Virus record (IMG/VR): IMGVR_UViG_3300020048_000007
Coordinates: 32,001 to 96,000 of that record
Strand: one strand, 5' to 3'
Length of the DNA stretch: 64,000 nt
Source of the DNA: a virus
Taxonomy: Duplodnaviria; Caudoviricetes
Shown: one piece after another, positions 51,094 through 61,403 of the stretch
Position numbering within the stretch: position 1 is the stretch's first letter
Layout: every line of letters begins with the position of its first letter
Notes under the pieces: generated by a model
The model's input: the letters and a program-made list of their open reading frames with translations, nothing else
Database searches by the model: none
Told to the model about the DNA's origin: nothing
Made by a program: the position numbers and the translations under genes

Positions 51094-51097
<4 letters not shown>
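50576..51097 (-). CDS. Hypothetical protein with C-terminal coiled coil
   Basis: 173-aa ORF with an ATGA overlap. Confidence 0.65.
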
Positions 51098-51567
<470 letters not shown>

Positions 51568-52982: not shown

Positions 52983-53258
52983 TTATTGCCCCATTTCTGC
53001 TCGTTGCTTGGCTTCAAGAATATCTGATTTTCTATGGTCGTATATCGTACACGTGTTCCGATAATGCGTGGCAAGGGTTACTTCTACATCATAAGGGACT
53101 CCCCATATGCTACTCCATGTGGTACCTTCTGTCCATTCGTCTATTAGTTCCTGGCATTTGTCATAATGGCCTGGCGTATACGTGCAAATAAACACAGTAC
53201 CATTACGCCGTACAGGATGCGTTCTGAGAGGGTTATTTTTATCTGTCACTCTGAACAT
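52983..53258 (-). CDS. Hypothetical protein
   Basis: 91-aa ORF. Confidence 0.55.
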   Translation of the reverse strand: MFRVTDKNNPLRTHPVRRNGTVFICTYTPGHYDKCQELIDEWTEGTTWSSIWGVPYDVEVTLATHYRNTCTIYDHRKSDILEAKQRAEMGQ

Positions 53259-53841
53259 CTCCCATCTTCTGGGTGCTTATGAAATCACCAGACTTCATCC
53301 ACTTACCGTGCTCTAAAGACAATACATCCTCAGCGGCCTGAATAATAACAAGCGAATGAGTCGCTATTATTATTTGACACTTGCTTTCACTAGCCCTTGT
53401 GACCTCATCCCAGACTTTAAACTGATTTCTTAACGATAAACCGGCCTCAGGCTCATCCAACAAGATCACACTATCCTTCACCTTTTTGAGACAGTCAACC
53501 GTATACATTTTTAAAACCTCACCATGAGACTTAAATCTAGACATGATTGACCCGACATAGCCAATACCAATATCCTCACCGTTAGCCTTAGAGTAAAGCG
53601 TCGGATCAGTGGTCCTGGGATTCATATGCTCTGAATCAAAATAAAATGAATTCACTCCCTTTAAACCAAGAGGAGTTAGCTGCAGATCTAAAAATTTAGC
53701 CTGGGCTTGTAACCCCTTCAATAATGTTGATTTACCACAGCCCTGATCACCGACTATGACCGTTATGTCTCTGAATCTGAATTTTTTACCCTTTTTGAAG
53801 CATCTGTGCTGGCTAGCGATTTTCGCCTGTTCAATGTACAC
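53239..53841 (-). CDS. Stand-alone ABC-type (AAA_21-like) ATPase
   Basis: Walker A GDQGCGKST, SHGE, Walker B ILLDEPE, H-loop ATHS. Probable GTG start at 53841 after GAGGAG. Confidence 0.85.
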   Translation of the reverse strand: MYIEQAKIASQHRCFKKGKKFRFRDITVIVGDQGCGKSTLLKGLQAQAKFLDLQLTPLGLKGVNSFYFDSEHMNPRTTDPTLYSKANGEDIGIGYVGSIMSRFKSHGEVLKMYTVDCLKKVKDSVILLDEPEAGLSLRNQFKVWDEVTRASESKCQIIIATHSLVIIQAAEDVLSLEHGKWMKSGDFISTQKMGDVQSDR

Positions 53842-53884
53842 TAGTGACTCCTCTTCTTGATTGTGTGACTCTAACCAGTCATTA

Positions 53885-53910
53885 ATGGCAAGCAATCAAG
53901 TCGGCGTCAA
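53885..53910 (-). promoter_or_regulatory. Putative promoter TTGAC(G/A)CC-N12-TGCCA, copy 3
   Basis: TTGACGCC-gacttgat-TGCTTGCCAT. The 8-nt and 10-nt boxes are identical to copy 1. Confidence 0.65.
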
Positions 53911-53912
53911 TA

Positions 53913-55592
53913 TCAGACCTTTTCTAATCTGAAACCATAGACCACAATAGTTTCATTATACCCATCATGCTTAATATCACCAGCACCCTGCACTATATCA
54001 ACACCGTGCATATCTATTGACTTATCTAAGATAATATCATAATAAACCCCAGTGCCATCCCCAATAGTAACAAAAGTCATGTCCTTCATTTTCCTGTGGC
54101 AAGCCACGAGACCCCTAAAATCAAGCCAATCACCTTCCCTCCGAAAATGCAATCCATTCGGAATCACATCCTTAAACCACGACCCAAAACGGTCATATTG
54201 CTCCTTAATGTCCGGCTCAAATAGCCACATCTGATACTGAGGCTTCTTAAGAGACTGCTCATGAAGATACCACTTCGGCCTTCCCATGTCTATCTTGAGC
54301 CCGGCCTTCTTAGCTTCCTGAATATAAACCCACGGCCTGTACATCGATTTACAGTGATTCAACGTCGCCTTCCAAAATCTGTGCGGATTATACACCTTCT
54401 GATAAGCCAAAGCCCACACAAGATACGCATAACTTAACGCATGCGACTTGCAAAACGAATACATCTTTATCTGTAAAAGATCTGAGATAATAATATCCAC
54501 ATCTGGATGATGCGATATCTTCTGCTTGAACTCATCGATAATCTTAAAGTTATTCTTAGCAAACGCCCTCCTATAATAATCTGCCCGATCCTCTGAGCAC
54601 CCCAGCAGACCCTGTATCTGTTGTATCGCATCATCCTCAAACACTATCTGAGTTATCTTCCTCTCTTCATTCCACGTATCCAAAAAAGTCTTCTTTCTAC
54701 CTCTAGACGCAGCCGCAGGACGTATTAAAGCCAGAGCAACAGCCAATTCCTGGATATTCTTCGGCTTTACCGCCTTAGCTGCCTTCCTAAACGTCGGAGA
54801 CTCAGCGAATGTGATCCCAGTCACATCCCCTGAAGCAAATAATTCAGCTATCTTAGGATCATTATCAGGATATGAACTCAGAGCCCTCTGATCAATATCA
54901 AGCAGCTGGGCTAAAGCACGATTGCATAATAAGTCAATCTTTAAAATGCCTAGCTCATCCACATCATTTTTATCATAATAAATCTGGTTCCTGCCTATCA
55001 GCAAGTCTCTCGGCACTTCATCTTCAAAGAACACTAGACCACCACAGTGAAGGGAGAAATGAGAGTGCTGGTCCATAAGACACTCAGCTAGCTCTAAGAC
55101 TCTCTCTTCCTTCCCAGGCATTAAATCTTTTACGTTCGCTTTTCTGGGTATCTTAGACTTACATCCAAGTCTACGCATGGCTTCTCTAATAGCCCCGTCT
55201 TTCCTGTAGTGTATCCGGTTGCTTATCCTCGCTACTTTTTTAGGCCATTTATCAAATATTTTTTCTATTATCTCGTCTCTTCTATCGTATGGGAAGTCTA
55301 AATCTATGTCTGGATTATCTGGTCTATGGTCATTCATAAATCGAGCTAATGATATGTTATCTCTTATTGGGTCTATTTCGCTTATGCCCATTAGATAACT
55401 CACTAAGCTACATGACGCTGATCCTCGCGTTATATGGGGTATACCATCAGCGATTTTTATGATGTCGTCTACTTTTTCGAATATGCACGAGAACTTAAAT
55501 TTCTCAATCAGTTCGAATTCTCTACTCAACCTATCATGATATTGCTTTTGAGGAGGTATTGGCCTTTTGAATCGTTCTATGAGATTATGCAT
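53913..55592 (-). CDS. dnaE: Compact DNA polymerase III alpha-subunit (family C) catalytic core lacking the PHP domain
   Basis: RGSASCSLVSYLMGISEIDP, RFMN-x-x-R-x-x-x-PDIDLDF, HCGGLV, KIDLL, YSFCKSHALSYA. Only 559 aa. Confidence 0.88.
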   Translation of the reverse strand: MHNLIERFKRPIPPQKQYHDRLSREFELIEKFKFSCIFEKVDDIIKIADGIPHITRGSASCSLVSYLMGISEIDPIRDNISLARFMNDHRPDNPDIDLDFPYDRRDEIIEKIFDKWPKKVARISNRIHYRKDGAIREAMRRLGCKSKIPRKANVKDLMPGKEERVLELAECLMDQHSHFSLHCGGLVFFEDEVPRDLLIGRNQIYYDKNDVDELGILKIDLLCNRALAQLLDIDQRALSSYPDNDPKIAELFASGDVTGITFAESPTFRKAAKAVKPKNIQELAVALALIRPAAASRGRKKTFLDTWNEERKITQIVFEDDAIQQIQGLLGCSEDRADYYRRAFAKNNFKIIDEFKQKISHHPDVDIIISDLLQIKMYSFCKSHALSYAYLVWALAYQKVYNPHRFWKATLNHCKSMYRPWVYIQEAKKAGLKIDMGRPKWYLHEQSLKKPQYQMWLFEPDIKEQYDRFGSWFKDVIPNGLHFRREGDWLDFRGLVACHRKMKDMTFVTIGDGTGVYYDIILDKSIDMHGVDIVQGAGDIKHDGYNETIVVYGFRLEKV

Positions 55593-58093: not shown

Positions 58094-58197
58094 CTATCAC
58101 TCCTATTCTATAACACATAAAATACAAAAGGGCTACTGAAGCAATAATAATAAAAGTAAATATAGCGACATTCCATGCAATTCCATAGGACACTGTG

Positions 58198-58929
58198 ATG
58201 ATAATCGCATACTATCCAATTCACTACGGCTCAGATTACTTAGGTTACAGTATCAAAAGCATATATGACCGAGTTGACCAGATCCATATTTTATATGCAC
58301 AGAACCCCTCACACGGGCATGGCACAAATCTTAAAAACCCAGACACATTCGGTAAATTACTAGAAGCTAGCTCGCAATTCGGAGACCCCCATAATAAAAT
58401 AGTATGGCATCACGGTGAATGGCCATACGAAGGTGCTCAACGAGACACTATTAATAAAATCGCTTCAAAAGTAAACGCAGACATGATATTGGCAGTCGAT
58501 GCAGATGAAATATGGGACGAAAACGTTCTAGACCAGGCAATAACAGACGCATTCCAAAATAACAAAAAATTTAACCTAATCAGAATGTTAACGTTCTGGC
58601 GATGCTTCAATAAAGTAGTAACAGATGAAATGTGCCCAAACAGGATAATTCTACCAAAAGCAGAAGAAGGTACAAATTATCTTACCGGCAGGGTCCACCA
58701 CTTCGGATACGCCAGAACAATCGAAAACATAGAATACAAAATGTCGATCCACGGCCACAAAAACGAATGGCGAAAAGAATGGATAGACATATACAAAAAT
58801 TGGCCCCACTCAAGAAACACAGACCTGCACCCAACATGCGAAAACATGTGGACCGTAGAAGATTTTGATAAAACCACCCTGCCAGATTTCATGCACCAAC
58901 ACCCATACTACGATTTAGAAATAATCTAA
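58198..58929 (+). CDS. Glycosyltransferase family 2-like
   Basis: YLGYSIKSIY...EGAQRD...ILAVDADEIW...VHHFGY. Confidence 0.75.
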   Translation: MIIAYYPIHYGSDYLGYSIKSIYDRVDQIHILYAQNPSHGHGTNLKNPDTFGKLLEASSQFGDPHNKIVWHHGEWPYEGAQRDTINKIASKVNADMILAVDADEIWDENVLDQAITDAFQNNKKFNLIRMLTFWRCFNKVVTDEMCPNRIILPKAEEGTNYLTGRVHHFGYARTIENIEYKMSIHGHKNEWRKEWIDIYKNWPHSRNTDLHPTCENMWTVEDFDKTTLPDFMHQHPYYDLEII

Positions 58930-58938
58930 GAGGTAAAA

Positions 58939-59445
58939 ATGGGCGAGCTAATAATGGGCAAAGGATCATACGGAAGTATAGTGAGACGAGGAGTCCACAA
59001 TAGTATCACAGTTGGTAATTATTGCTCCATAGCAGAAGGATGCATCTGTGACGGCGGTTTCGGCCACAACACCAAATTTGTAACAACATATCCTTTAAAC
59101 GTCAACATGAGAGACTGCAGTCAACTTACCGGACACCCTGTCTGGAAAGGAGACATCATAATAGGTAATGATGTATGGATCGGTGAACATTGTATGCTCA
59201 TGAGCGGAATAAAAATTGGAGATGGAGCAGTAATCGGCGCTAGATCGATAGTCACCAAAGATATACCACCATACACAATAGCGGCAGGCTCCCCAGCCAG
59301 AGTAATCAAAAAACGATTCACCGATGATCAAATAGAAAAGTTGTTAAAAATAAAATGGTGGGACTGGGACGAACAAAAAATAGTCGACAATGCTCACCTG
59401 TTAATGAACACTAATATCGACAATTTCACATCTTTGCACCTCTGA
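58939..59445 (+). CDS. Hexapeptide-repeat O-acetyltransferase (CatB/Vat-like fold)
   Basis: [67 protein letters not shown]. Confidence 0.88.
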
Positions 59446-59455
59446 AAGAAACCAA

Positions 59456-60016
59456 ATGCTAGATTCTGCTAGAAACCTGTCGACGACAACAAGAGAAACT
59501 GTAAGCCAAACAGACCTATCTAAAAACATACATAAAATAGAGAACACTTTTGCTCATTATTATACGGCTTCCCCAGGTGCTGAACATTATAGGCTATTAG
59601 CACATATCAGTTATTTCACTAACGGAACCAATATCCTAGACATCGGAACTTATCTAGGATATTCATCGATAGCATTAAGCCAAAACAATAACAATAAAAT
59701 TATTTCATACGACGTTAACAAACAACACAACCAAGAAGATCACGATAATGTTACTTATCGGATAGGTGATGCTAGAGACTTTGAGGATTTTGAAAACACA
59801 AAAGTGATATTGTTAGATACATATCACGACGGTGTATATGAAGAAAAATTCATAGAACATTTAAGATCGATAAAATGGCATGGGTTACTCATCATGGATG
59901 ATATCCATGAATACCCGCAGTTGAAAGAATTATACGACAAATTGCCAGAAGAAAAATACGACATTACAAATATTGGTCACTGGTCAGGGACTGGTATAGT
60001 ACTATTTCAAAGATAA
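59456..60016 (+). CDS. Class I SAM methyltransferase (Methyltransf_24-like)
   Basis: ILDIGTYLGYSSIAL, ILLDTYH, LLIMDDI. Confidence 0.8.
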   Translation: MLDSARNLSTTTRETVSQTDLSKNIHKIENTFAHYYTASPGAEHYRLLAHISYFTNGTNILDIGTYLGYSSIALSQNNNNKIISYDVNKQHNQEDHDNVTYRIGDARDFEDFENTKVILLDTYHDGVYEEKFIEHLRSIKWHGLLIMDDIHEYPQLKELYDKLPEEKYDITNIGHWSGTGIVLFQR

Positions 60017-60053
60017 ACTAAAACTCCCTTAATCAATTGGATATCGCGATATA

Positions 60054-60692
60054 ATGATAAATCTTGATAGGATCACGGCTGTTTGCTGGGATGGACGGCC
60101 TTTGACACCGGAGCGCTCATCTAGATATCAAGCTATTTTTAAGCATATGTCAAACAAGTTCAAATTTGCTGCGATTAACTTATATATAAATGGTAGCTTT
60201 AACTATGAAGGAGTGAAAGTTACCAACATTAATGAATCTAGCATAAACGATTACAATATATGGTGCCAAACCAAATTAGCTGACTCTTTTAACACTGATT
60301 TTGTTTTAGTATTTCAAGACGATGGCTTCCCAATACATCCTGATAATTGGAAAAACGAGTTTTACGAATATGACTACATAGGTGCGCCATGGCCCTTATA
60401 TATAGGATGGCCAAAAGAAAATTTTCAGGTAGGTAATGGCGGTTTTAGTTTAAGATCGAAGAAAATATGCACAAGAGTACAAAAATTCCCTGTTACAACT
60501 AGCAATGAAGATGCAGTTCTCTGCTCAAATTATAAACCATTGCTGGAGAAAGAGGGCTTTAAATGGGCACCCATAGATGTGGCTAAAAGCTTTGCTATTG
60601 AATTCCCAATAGACGAAAAACATTCATTAGCCAGCGTATTTGGATATCATGGAAATGTGCATAATCATGATATATCTAAGATTATATTTTGA
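60054..60692 (+). CDS. DUF5672-like protein (glycosyltransferase-associated)
   Basis: VLVFQDDGF...FYEYDYIGAPW...VGNGGFSLRS...NEDA...FGYHG. Confidence 0.75.
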   Translation: MINLDRITAVCWDGRPLTPERSSRYQAIFKHMSNKFKFAAINLYINGSFNYEGVKVTNINESSINDYNIWCQTKLADSFNTDFVLVFQDDGFPIHPDNWKNEFYEYDYIGAPWPLYIGWPKENFQVGNGGFSLRSKKICTRVQKFPVTTSNEDAVLCSNYKPLLEKEGFKWAPIDVAKSFAIEFPIDEKHSLASVFGYHGNVHNHDISKIIF

Positions 60693-60767
60693 AGCAGTGT
60701 TTTGATTCTACTAGGCCGAAAAACGTTGTAACAACGGACGATTAAAAATAATATGAGGAGCTAAATA

Positions 60768-61403
60768 ATGAGCATTATGATAGGCATACCTGTAATTTAT
60801 AATGAGACTTGTGTAAGAATATGCTTAGAACACTTAAAAAATCAAAACACCGAATTATTCATAATAGACAACAACTCAGAAGAATCGATCAAAAAACTAA
60901 TCGAACCATATAAAAAAATAGTAAACGCACAAAACGTATACGTGAACCCAGCATGGAACCAAATACTAGAGGAATTCCTTAAAACAGACCATGACCTATT
61001 AGTCATAATGAATAGCGATCTATACCTTAATCACGACGTGATAAAGAAACTAAGCGAACTAGACTTAGATAGAGATAAAACCATAGCATGTCTAAACCTA
61101 GTAGACCTCTTCTATGAATGCGAGAGGCAAATAACCTATGTTAATGGTGGCGTAGCAGGCGTCTTTATCCCTTTAACCCAAAAAATGGCAAGAGAAGTAT
61201 ACCCAATACCGCCAGAACTAAAAATCTGGTACGGTGATAACTGGATATATGAAAAACTCAAAAAAATAGGCTACCAGCTAACAATATTTAACGATTTACA
61301 AGCCCAACACATCTGGAGCAGTAGCGTTGGCGTACTGCCAGAAGCACACCAAGTTATAGAACAGGACCAACTAGCATGGCCGACAGTACAGACACGCATC
61401 TGA
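60768..61403 (+). CDS. Glycosyltransferase family 2-like
   Basis: IGIPVI...FIIDNNS...NVYVNPAWNQ...VIMNSDL...IWYGDNWIY. Confidence 0.75.
   Translation: MSIMIGIPVIYNETCVRICLEHLKNQNTELFIIDNNSEESIKKLIEPYKKIVNAQNVYVNPAWNQILEEFLKTDHDLLVIMNSDLYLNHDVIKKLSELDLDRDKTIACLNLVDLFYECERQITYVNGGVAGVFIPLTQKMAREVYPIPPELKIWYGDNWIYEKLKKIGYQLTIFNDLQAQHIWSSSVGVLPEAHQVIEQDQLAWPTVQTRI

What the first reader, a model, noticed from the sequence alone, without database searches (positions are those of the whole stretch)
53913..55592. Minimal 559-aa family-C polymerase: DnaE core with no PHP domain and no obvious HhH motif
Seen: the protein starts at the helix preceding RGSA, keeps all three catalytic Asp positions (PDIDLDF, KIDLL) and the F-x-KSH finger motif, and ends in a short OB-like beta region. 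No PHP motifs, no intein ends, no adjacent PHP or epsilon gene. Established: bacterial DnaE is about 1000-1200 aa, with proofreading from PHP or epsilon. Inference: a stripped, possibly error-prone, repair or priming polymerase rather than the main replicase.
Basis: partly seen in the sequence, partly recalled or inferred. Interest (0 to 1): 0.64.

Follow-up and report, generated by a model that had tools for sequence, protein, structure and literature searches.

The report
Compact PHP-less phage DnaE polymerase
A giant freshwater phage carries, besides its normal two-piece replicative polymerase, a second, half-size bacterial-type (family C) DNA polymerase with no proofreading domain but an intact active site and a sliding-clamp docking motif; it belongs to a large, uncharacterised, virus-only enzyme family.

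Summary
Window 53913-55592 (-) encodes a 559-aa family-C polymerase with a palm, short thumb, fingers and C-terminal OB fold. It has no PHP domain, no beta-binding/HhH domain and no tau-binding tail.

It is not an oddity. More than 1,600 database proteins and at least 569 IMG/VR loci match, mostly 545-600 aa, with invariant catalytic motifs and dN/dS about 0.025. No cultured phage has it.

New here: the fingers-OB linker carries a bacterial beta-clamp-type motif (QMWLF, aa 454-458). Family members have this motif either internally or at the C-terminus, almost never both. It is 80- to 290-fold enriched over the rest of the protein.

A derived clade fused to an N-terminal SF2 helicase lacks the motif and lives in eukaryotic giant viruses. 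The scan had already noted those fusions on other DNA.

In this genome a split, PHP-bearing DnaE lies 90 kb away in the replication module. Thirteen relatives with that split DnaE, two of them complete, lack the short enzyme. So here it is an accessory, non-proofreading, probably clamp-tethered polymerase. Its exact job (primer extension, repair or recombination synthesis) is unresolved.

It is a new variant of a known kind. Iyer et al. 2021 described only a split ultra-minimal phage Pol III alpha, which is a different entity.

The parts
53913..55592 (-). Whole CDS of the 559-aa short DnaE (stop codon 53913-53915)
   Evidence: ORF list; PF07733 + PF17657; AF2 model pLDDT 92.1; fold matches to DnaE1, Taq and E. 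coli Pol III alpha, Z 28-36
55215..55592 (-). Palm, N-terminal part (aa 1-126, boundary approximate). Contains RGSAS (55413-55427), RFMN (55332-55343) and the two catalytic Asp in PDIDLDF (55293-55313)
   Evidence: Motif coordinates; invariant columns R56 G57 S58 P94 D95 D97 D99 in 45 family members; aligned to Taq RGSAA / PDIDTDF. Model residue 1 = E. coli 289 / Taq 307 / Mtb 318
55068..55214 (-). Shortened thumb (aa about 127-175; about 49 aa against about 78 in E. coli alpha). Boundaries are inferred
   Evidence: Helices 131-141, 154-157 and 162-172 lie between palm strands in the model; gaps against Taq 491-593 in the HMMER alignment. Boundaries inferred from motif offsets
54918..55067 (-). 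Palm, C-terminal part (aa about 176-225), with the third catalytic Asp in KIDLL (54927-54941)
   Evidence: K218 and D220 invariant; aligned to Taq LKMDFL; coordinates
54294..54917 (-). Fingers (aa about 226-433; about 208 aa against about 350 in E. coli). Motifs IRPAA (54711-54725), YRRAFAK (54555-54575), FCKSHA (54438-54455)
   Evidence: PF17657 aa 237-360; invariant R291 P292 R341 S379 C381 H384; alignment to Taq up to residue 867
54150..54293 (-). About 48-aa linker that replaces the beta-binding/HhH domain (aa 434-481)
   Evidence: Model 1-558 spans Taq 307-1122 with only 532 aligned residues; no HHH_6 hit; local pLDDT dip to 77 at aa 451-460
54219..54233 (-). QMWLF (aa 454-458): candidate sliding-clamp-binding motif of the bacterial beta type (Q-L-[SD]-L-F-like)
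   Evidence: Position. Strict Q..LF occurs at 5.2 per 1000 residues in family linkers and 18.9 per 1000 in C-terminal tails, against 0.065 per 1000 elsewhere. Internal and C-terminal motifs are mutually exclusive: 42, 37, 1 with both. Absent in 119 of 120 helicase-fused giant-virus forms
53916..54149 (-). C-terminal OB fold (aa 482-559)
   Evidence: All-beta in the model; Z 8.7-9.7 to PriB, SSB, RPA32, Stn1 and Asn/Asp-tRNA synthetase OB domains. Also aligned to the OB region of Taq (to residue 1122) and Mtb DnaE1 (to 1099)

Best explanation
The gene encodes an active, non-proofreading family-C DNA polymerase. It belongs to a large clade found only in viruses. The chain is reduced to palm, short thumb, fingers, a roughly 48-residue linker and an OB fold. 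The linker carries a bacterial-type clamp-binding pentapeptide (QMWLF). With no PHP, HhH or tau-binding parts, the enzyme most likely gains processivity by docking on a sliding clamp, probably the host beta clamp, since no phage clamp was detected. The OB fold would handle single-stranded template. In this phage it is an accessory second polymerase. The core replicase is the split PHP-bearing DnaE in the replication module 90 kb away. Shown here: the fold, the intact and conserved active site, purifying selection, the motif statistics, the presence of a separate replicase, and the absence of the short enzyme from close relatives. Inferred: that it polymerises DNA, that the motif binds the host beta clamp, and its task. 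My preferred task is short-patch synthesis that the replicase does not do well. That could be extension of primers before hand-off, as B. subtilis DnaE does, or gap-filling and recombination-primed synthesis.
For: Fold and domain limits. Family size and conservation: more than 1,671 hits, the top 120 nearly all 545-600 aa and full length; at least 569 IMG/VR loci; invariant catalytic columns. Selection: pN 0.049, pS 0.70, dN/dS about 0.025 against a 91%-identical relative. Clamp motif: enrichment and mutual exclusivity. No beta-type or gp45-type clamp in 17 records. The motif is lost in the helicase-fused clade, which sits in NCLDV-capsid-bearing contigs. Accessory status here: a split PHP-DnaE and a DnaB-like gene lie at 165-180 kb. 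The short enzyme is only remotely like that DnaE and falls in a different clade. Thirteen of 13 relatives with the split DnaE lack the short one, including genomes rated 100% and 98% complete. Other lineages pair it with a different full-size polymerase: PolA in G001/G002 and PolB in the 484-kb LR756508.1. Replisome link elsewhere: primase, DnaB and EndoIII precede the short DnaE in many loci. The B. subtilis DnaE analogue is described in PMC3664799.
Against: There is no biochemical evidence for activity, clamp binding or fidelity. The Q-x-x-L-F motif could bind a divergent phage clamp or another partner, and Pfam may miss such clamps. This record is only about 64% complete. In this genome the gene lies among unknown small ORFs, not next to replication genes. 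Thirty-eight of 118 stand-alone members lack a strict motif, although many show variants at the same site. In 13 other contigs no other polymerase was found, so elsewhere the family may be the main replicase. The role may therefore differ between lineages.
Confidence: 0.6

Rival explanations
1. It is the phage's main replicative polymerase, or one of two co-equal replicases (for example one per strand), rather than an accessory enzyme.
For: In many other loci the short DnaE closes a primase, DnaB-helicase, EndoIII module. Thirteen contigs of 52-138 kb show no PolA, PolB or PHP gene. A clamp motif fits processive synthesis. Iyer et al. suggest strand-specific cooperation for their minimal phage Pol III (PMC7824862).
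Against: This genome has a complete split PHP-DnaE beside a DnaB-like helicase and other replication genes, 90 kb from the short gene. Two essentially complete relatives replicate without any short DnaE. The 13 polymerase-poor contigs are only 8-39% complete.
Confidence: 0.15
2. It is a dedicated translesion or repair polymerase, DnaE2-like or working in base-excision gap filling. It would be used when phage DNA is damaged or attacked.
For: No proofreading domain. An EndoIII/HhH-GPD glycosylase gene lies directly upstream in 14 loci. JGI pipelines label several members 'error-prone DNA polymerase'. The gene is sporadic within this lineage.
Against: No imuA/imuB-like partner was seen among the neighbours. 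DnaE2 keeps a degenerate PHP domain and its C-terminal domains, according to PMC12926913, and this protein does not. The JGI labels are automatic. No fidelity data exist. This reading overlaps the best explanation rather than excluding it.
Confidence: 0.15
3. It is the catalytic half of a second split DnaE. It would borrow the 464-aa PHP-bearing N-part of the genome's split DnaE in trans, so one PHP subunit serves two polymerase cores.
For: The 559-aa protein and the 908-aa C-part both begin at about the same structural point, just after the PHP domain. Split DnaEs with separate PHP pieces exist in cultured phages, for example the 569 + 466 aa pair of Pseudomonas phage PA5.
Against: Fifteen IMG/VR contigs, the 484-kb LR756508.1 and other records with a short DnaE contain no PHP domain at all. 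The short enzyme has its own intact RGSA segment, whereas the 908-aa C-part has a degenerate one that the N-part could supply. The two proteins belong to different clades.
Confidence: 0.07
4. It is a catalytically dead relic or a non-polymerase DNA-binding factor.
For: No direct activity data. Large deletions relative to every characterised C-family enzyme.
Against: All three catalytic Asp and the nucleotide-binding motifs are invariant across 45 diverse members. dN/dS is about 0.025. The fold is predicted with high confidence.
Confidence: 0.03

Closest known systems
Bacterial DnaE1 / Pol III alpha (Taq 2hpi/3e0d, M. tuberculosis 5lew/7pu7, E. coli 2hnh)
   Same: Same palm-thumb-fingers fold (Z 28-36). 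Same catalytic and nucleotide-binding motifs. An OB fold follows the fingers. A clamp-binding-type motif lies between the fingers and the OB fold, where E. coli alpha has its internal beta-binding site (the E. coli position is from my own knowledge).
   Different: No PHP domain, no beta-binding/HhH domain and no tau-binding C-terminal domain. Thumb and fingers are shortened: 559 aa against about 1,150-1,220. Sequence identity is 21-26%. The family is separated from bacterial DnaEs by a long, fully supported branch.
Split ultra-minimal Pol III alpha of group 2.2 jumbo phages (Iyer et al. 2021, PMC7824862)
   Same: Phage-specific and PHP-less. It accompanies another replicative polymerase.
   Different: That form is two separate proteins encoded far apart. 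I found such pieces: an N-piece of 173-196 aa and a C-piece of 188 aa. They co-occur with an unsplit short DnaE in the same contigs, so the two are distinct genes. The pieces lack a thumb, most of the fingers, the linker motif and the OB fold. Group 2.2 cultured phages did not appear in tblastn with our protein.
B. subtilis DnaE (DnaE3 group)
   Same: A second family-C polymerase without its own active proofreading. It works beside a main replicase and acts with primase and helicase to extend primers (PMC3664799; PMC12926913). The short DnaE sits next to primase and DnaB genes in many phage loci.
   Different: DnaE3 keeps an inactive PHP domain and the full C-terminal domains. No functional data exist for the phage enzyme. 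In this genome it is not next to primase or helicase genes.
SF2-helicase / short-DnaE fusions of giant viruses
   Same: The polymerase part is 35-42% identical over up to 99% of our protein and belongs to the same clade.
   Different: An N-terminal helicase of about 410 aa stands where PHP would be. The clamp motif is absent. The hosts are eukaryotic, as shown by the NCLDV capsid in 2 of 2 searchable contigs.
DnaE2 / ImuC error-prone polymerase
   Same: A family-C enzyme without working proofreading. Some family members carry this name from automatic annotation.
   Different: DnaE2 has a degenerate PHP domain and works with ImuA/ImuB (PMC12926913, PMC10421592). No such partners or domain are seen here.

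Membership tests
Family C DNA polymerases (Pol III alpha superfamily) | Pol-beta-like nucleotidyltransferase palm with three catalytic Asp, plus the Pol III alpha finger domain | tested here: met
   PF07733 E 1e-39 and PF17657 E 8e-15. D95, D97 and D220 invariant. Fold Z 28-36 to DnaE1 and PolC structures.
Canonical DnaE (DnaE1/2/3) | N-terminal PHP domain, active or degenerate | tested here: not met
   No PF02811 hit in the protein at E<=1. Model residue 1 aligns to E. coli 289 / Taq 307, after the PHP domain.
Canonical DnaE (DnaE1/2/3) | Beta-binding domain with helix-hairpin-helix motif after the fingers | tested here: not met
   No HHH_6 hit. Only a linker of about 48 aa lies between the fingers and the OB fold.
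Canonical DnaE (DnaE1/2/3) | Internal beta-clamp-binding peptide | tested here: inconclusive
   QMWLF at 454-458 fits the consensus and is statistically supported across the family. Binding was not tested.
Canonical DnaE (DnaE1/2/3) | OB fold in the C-terminal region | tested here: met
   aa 482-559, Z about 9-9.7 to OB proteins, and aligned to the OB region of Taq and Mtb DnaE.
DnaE1 replicase | Tau-binding C-terminal subdomain | tested here: not met
   The protein ends at the OB fold (residue 559). The alignment to Taq stops at 1122 of 1220.
DnaE2 / ImuC mutasome polymerase | imuA-imuB-dnaE2 gene cassette | tested here: inconclusive
   Neighbours in the window and in 84 related loci show no such genes by Pfam. 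No genome-wide search for ImuA/ImuB models was run.
Split minimal phage Pol III alpha (Iyer et al. 2021) | Catalytic module divided into two stand-alone proteins encoded at distant sites | tested here: not met
   Single 559-aa chain. Only 50 short fragments against more than 1,600 full-length members. The true split pieces co-occur as separate genes.
Short stand-alone viral DnaE clade (defined here) | About 545-600 aa, palm to OB, no PHP, and clustering with the clade in a tree rooted on bacterial DnaE | tested here: met
   71% identity to P0004. Inside the clade, which has SH-aLRT 100. Full-length matches.

The most novel reading that the evidence does not exclude
The short DnaE family is a self-sufficient minimal replicative polymerase of huge phages. 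It hijacks the host beta clamp through a movable Q-x-x-L-F peptide. In some marine huge phages it is the only DNA polymerase. It was also the source of the helicase-DnaE enzymes of eukaryotic giant viruses, which dropped the bacterial clamp motif after the host jump.
Probability: 0.3. Interest if true: 0.8.

Novelty: new variant of a known kind. Interest (0 to 1): 0.6.

Why it matters
Every characterised family-C polymerase, and every group in the 2026 survey of bacterial polymerases (PMC12926913), carries a PHP domain. A natural, abundant, strongly conserved enzyme without it gives a minimal working model of this replicase class for structure and enzymology.

The moving clamp motif suggests that huge phages plug a private polymerase into the host's sliding clamp. 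The loss of that motif in the giant-virus helicase fusions would mark a phage-to-eukaryotic-virus gene transfer with a readable functional adaptation.

For this phage, it shows that two unrelated family-C enzymes coexist. That makes division of labour between polymerases testable.

Tried and rejected
Link to the Z-base (PurZ) module: a PurA/PurZ-like gene occurs in only 1 of 16 other records with a short DnaE. Rejected.

Recent duplication of the genome's own split DnaE: the best BLASTP segment is 43 aa at E 5e-5, and the two fall in different clades. Rejected.

PHP-fused close relatives: the 'longer' search returned helicase fusions, none with PHP among the top 120.

Cultured-phage member: tblastn with the whole protein and with each half found only the metagenomic LR756508.1. 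BFVD had nothing above 26% identity.

Cellular origin or host clue: only 6 loci in about 186,000 species genomes, all on short MAG contigs.

Conserved partner genes from other lineages: the 100-aa downstream ORF, EndoIII, the primase and the fused-type helicase have no detectable homologue in this genome. Only a DnaB-like gene at about 167 kb was found.

Phage-encoded clamp: none found with PF00712, PF02768 or PF09116. The gp45 search has no positive control among the control genomes.

Promoter and terminator scan: not above chance.

The single-sequence locus search with the split DnaE N-part found nothing.

The helicase part of the fusions has no PDB sequence match.

Full report
WHAT IS THERE. 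The window is bases 32001-96000 of a 231,672-bp IMG/VR virus record. CheckV rates the record about 64% complete. It is a giant freshwater phage according to earlier notes of this scan. The ORF at 53913-55592 (- strand) encodes 559 aa. Pfam finds the Pol III alpha catalytic domain (PF07733, aa 6-222, E 1e-39) and the finger domain (PF17657, aa 237-360, E 8e-15), and nothing else even at E<=1. PHROGs places it on positions 349-847 of a 1,190-position phage DnaE profile. The best solved relative by sequence is Taq Pol III alpha, residues 388-867.

STRUCTURE. An AlphaFold model built on a 45-member family alignment is of high confidence (pLDDT 92.1, pTM 0.90). It superposes on several solved polymerases:
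- M. tuberculosis DnaE1, residues 318-889: Z 36.3, 455 residues aligned.
- Taq Pol III alpha, residues 307-1122: Z 34.8, 532 residues aligned.
- E. coli alpha, residues 289-835.
- PolC.

The chain therefore starts at the PHP/palm boundary. It keeps the palm, a shortened thumb and shortened fingers. The beta-binding/HhH domain is replaced by a linker of about 48 residues (aa 434-481). The chain ends in an OB fold (aa 482-559; Z about 9-9.7 to PriB, SSB, RPA32 and Asn/Asp-tRNA synthetase OB domains). There is no tau-binding tail.

IT IS A FAMILY, NOT AN ODDITY.
- The protein search returned more than 1,671 hits. The top 120 are nearly all 545-600 aa, full length, at 40-50% identity. Many lie on contigs of 100-300 kb.
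- IMG/VR holds at least 569 loci.
- The invariant columns across 45 diverse members include R56, G57, S58, P94, D95, D97, D99, K218, D220, R291, P292, R341, S379, C381 and H384.
- Against a 91%-identical relative, pN is 0.049 and pS is 0.70. That gives dN/dS of about 0.025, with dS near saturation.
- Only 50 short fragments were found, mostly cut by contig ends.
- No cultured phage carries the family. The only record in the phage collection is the unannotated 484-kb metagenomic LR756508.1. BFVD has nothing above 26% identity.
- Among about 186,000 species genomes, only six loci appeared, all on short MAG contigs.

A CLAMP MOTIF SURVIVES. The linker of our protein carries QMWLF at aa 454-458, in a local pLDDT dip. 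The bacterial beta-clamp-binding consensus is Q-L-[SD]-L-F (my own knowledge). Other members read QLSLF, QLTLF or QLALF at the same column.

Counts among the 118 stand-alone proteins:

| Motif class (strict Q..LF) | Number |
|---|---|
| Internal only | 42 |
| C-terminal tail only | 37 |
| Both | 1 |
| Neither | 38 |

Many of the 38 'neither' cases have variants at the same spot, such as ...TPFLF or QMTLL.

Rates of the strict pattern:

| Region | Hits per 1000 residues |
|---|---|
| Linker, stand-alone forms | 5.2 |
| C-terminal tail, stand-alone forms | 18.9 |
| Rest of the same proteins | 0.065 |
| Linker, helicase-fused forms | 0.18 |

The members with the C-terminal motif form one clade. 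No beta-type or gp45-type clamp gene was detected in 17 records, including this genome and the 484-kb phage. The inference is that the stand-alone enzymes dock on a sliding clamp, most simply the host's. Binding itself is untested.

RELATIVES WITH A HELICASE. The closest longer proteins are not PHP-bearing DnaEs. They are about 980-1,050 aa and 35-42% identical over up to 99% of our protein. They carry an N-terminal SF2 helicase (ResIII + Helicase_C, about 410 aa) where PHP would be. A few also have a Hint-type insertion in the helicase part.

In a tree rooted on bacterial DnaEs:
- Short and fused forms together make one clade (SH-aLRT 100).
- The fused forms are a single clade (SH-aLRT 97) nested among the short ones.

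Earlier notes of this scan, made on other DNA, had placed such fusions in giant viruses of eukaryotes. I tested that. About half of 80 fused-form loci lie on contigs named GVMAG. Both fused-form contigs that could be searched carry an NCLDV capsid gene: one of 428 kb rated 99% complete, and one of 160 kb. None of 17 stand-alone-form records does. So the bacterial-type clamp motif is present in the phage forms and lost in the eukaryotic-virus forms. That fits a bacterial clamp as the partner.

RELATION TO THE PUBLISHED 'MINIMAL POL III'. Iyer et al. 2021 (PMC7824862) described a phage-specific minimal Pol III alpha in T4-like group 2.2 jumbo phages. It is split into two proteins and accompanies a family-B polymerase. 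I found such pieces in several contigs:
- An N-piece of 173-196 aa that ends just after the RGS segment.
- A C-piece of 188 aa that starts MPDVDIDF and carries KIDLL, IIRPAK and KKSHA.

They sit in the same contigs as an unsplit short DnaE, so the two are different genes. Our genome has no such pieces. Weinheimer and Aylward 2022 (PMC9123017) report PF07733 as the signature gene of the marine jumbo-phage cluster PGC_A, without describing the architecture. It may be this family; I did not test that. The 2026 survey of bacterial polymerases builds all its family-C trees on PHP plus polymerase domains (PMC12926913). I found no paper on the unsplit short form.

ROLE IN THIS GENOME. A second DnaE lies at genome positions of about 174-180 kb:
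- A 464-aa N-part, holding the PHP domain and the start of the palm.
- Three small ORFs.
- A 908-aa C-part.

Beside it are a helicase-like gene, an Mre11-like gene, a DnaB-like gene at about 167 kb and a weak PolA-like frame. No PolB or DnaQ was found. The short enzyme is only remotely similar to that DnaE and falls in a different clade.

Thirteen IMG/VR contigs carry a close relative of the split N-part, at 37-68% identity. All 13 lack a short DnaE. Two of them are genomes rated 100% complete (408 kb) and 98% complete (354 kb). The family profile hits only the split pieces themselves, at E 1e-7 to 1e-17. So the split DnaE is the core replicase of this lineage, and the short enzyme is a sporadic addition.

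Its neighbours in the window give no functional clue. They are small unknown ORFs, a 218-aa ABC-type ATPase 17 nt downstream, and a sugar-modification cluster on the other strand.

ROLE ELSEWHERE. Other lineages pair the short enzyme with a different full-size polymerase: a 958-aa PolA in G001 and G002, and PolB frames in LR756508.1. None of these records has a PHP domain. In 37 of 84 loci a DnaB-like helicase is nearby. A common order is primase, DnaB, EndoIII glycosylase, short DnaE. In 22 loci a roughly 100-aa ORF follows directly, often overlapping the stop codon. Thirteen contigs of 52-138 kb show no other polymerase, but they are only 8-39% complete. The family may therefore be the replicase in some lineages and a helper in others.

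VERDICT. The best reading is an active, non-proofreading, clamp-tethered accessory polymerase of a large uncharacterised viral clade. The task I favour, without proof, is short-patch synthesis: primer extension before hand-off, as B. subtilis DnaE does (PMC3664799), or repair and recombination-primed synthesis. Novelty: a new variant of a known kind. Interest: 0.6.

LIMITS. There is no biochemistry. This genome and most related contigs are incomplete.

Noticed in passing
L056:5003-5569 (+); L113:1138-1728 (+); L114:1498-2019 (-): Split ultra-minimal Pol III alpha pieces co-occur with an unsplit short DnaE in marine phage contigs and in phage contigs binned into MAGs. The N-piece is 173-196 aa and ends at the RGS/EFLR segment. 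The C-piece is 188 aa with PDVDIDF, KIDLL, IIRPAK and KKSHA. These match the two-protein form described by Iyer et al. 2021.
   Followed up: partly
window 53239-53895 (-): A 218-aa compact ABC-type ATPase starts 17 nt after the short DnaE stop codon. PADLOC hits AriA, PtuA, GajA and OLD-class ATPases (best E 4e-16), but only at the Walker A and signature/Walker B ends. No nuclease partner is seen. In the 91%-identical relative L006 it lies about 2.6 kb further downstream, with two genes inserted between.
   Followed up: partly
L050:3358-3663 (+), L020:11641-11928 (+), L070:11656-11973 (+): A conserved ORF of about 100 aa follows the short DnaE in 22 loci, often overlapping its stop codon by 1-4 nt, which suggests translational coupling. 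It has no Pfam or PHROG match and no homologue in our genome. It could be a small subunit of the enzyme in those lineages.
   Followed up: partly
genome G000:C1:165108-165827 (-), outside the window; LR756508.1 241534-242250: Short, weak PolA-like frames (404 aa here, 456 aa in the 484-kb phage) occur in both genomes that also carry a short DnaE. This may be a second kind of trimmed polymerase.
   Followed up: no
window 58195-61403 (+): A sugar-modification cluster lies on the opposite strand, upstream of the small-ORF block: a hexapeptide acyltransferase, a methyltransferase-like protein, DUF5672 and a family-2 glycosyltransferase.
   Followed up: no
window 51094-51567 (-): A 157-aa ORF has an N-terminal Cys-rich, zinc-ribbon-like segment followed by a run of eleven Asp residues. 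It has no family match.
   Followed up: no
P0148, P0214 (proteins): Some helicase-fused forms carry a Hint-type (intein / homing-endonuclease-associated) insertion near the Walker A region of the helicase part.
   Followed up: no
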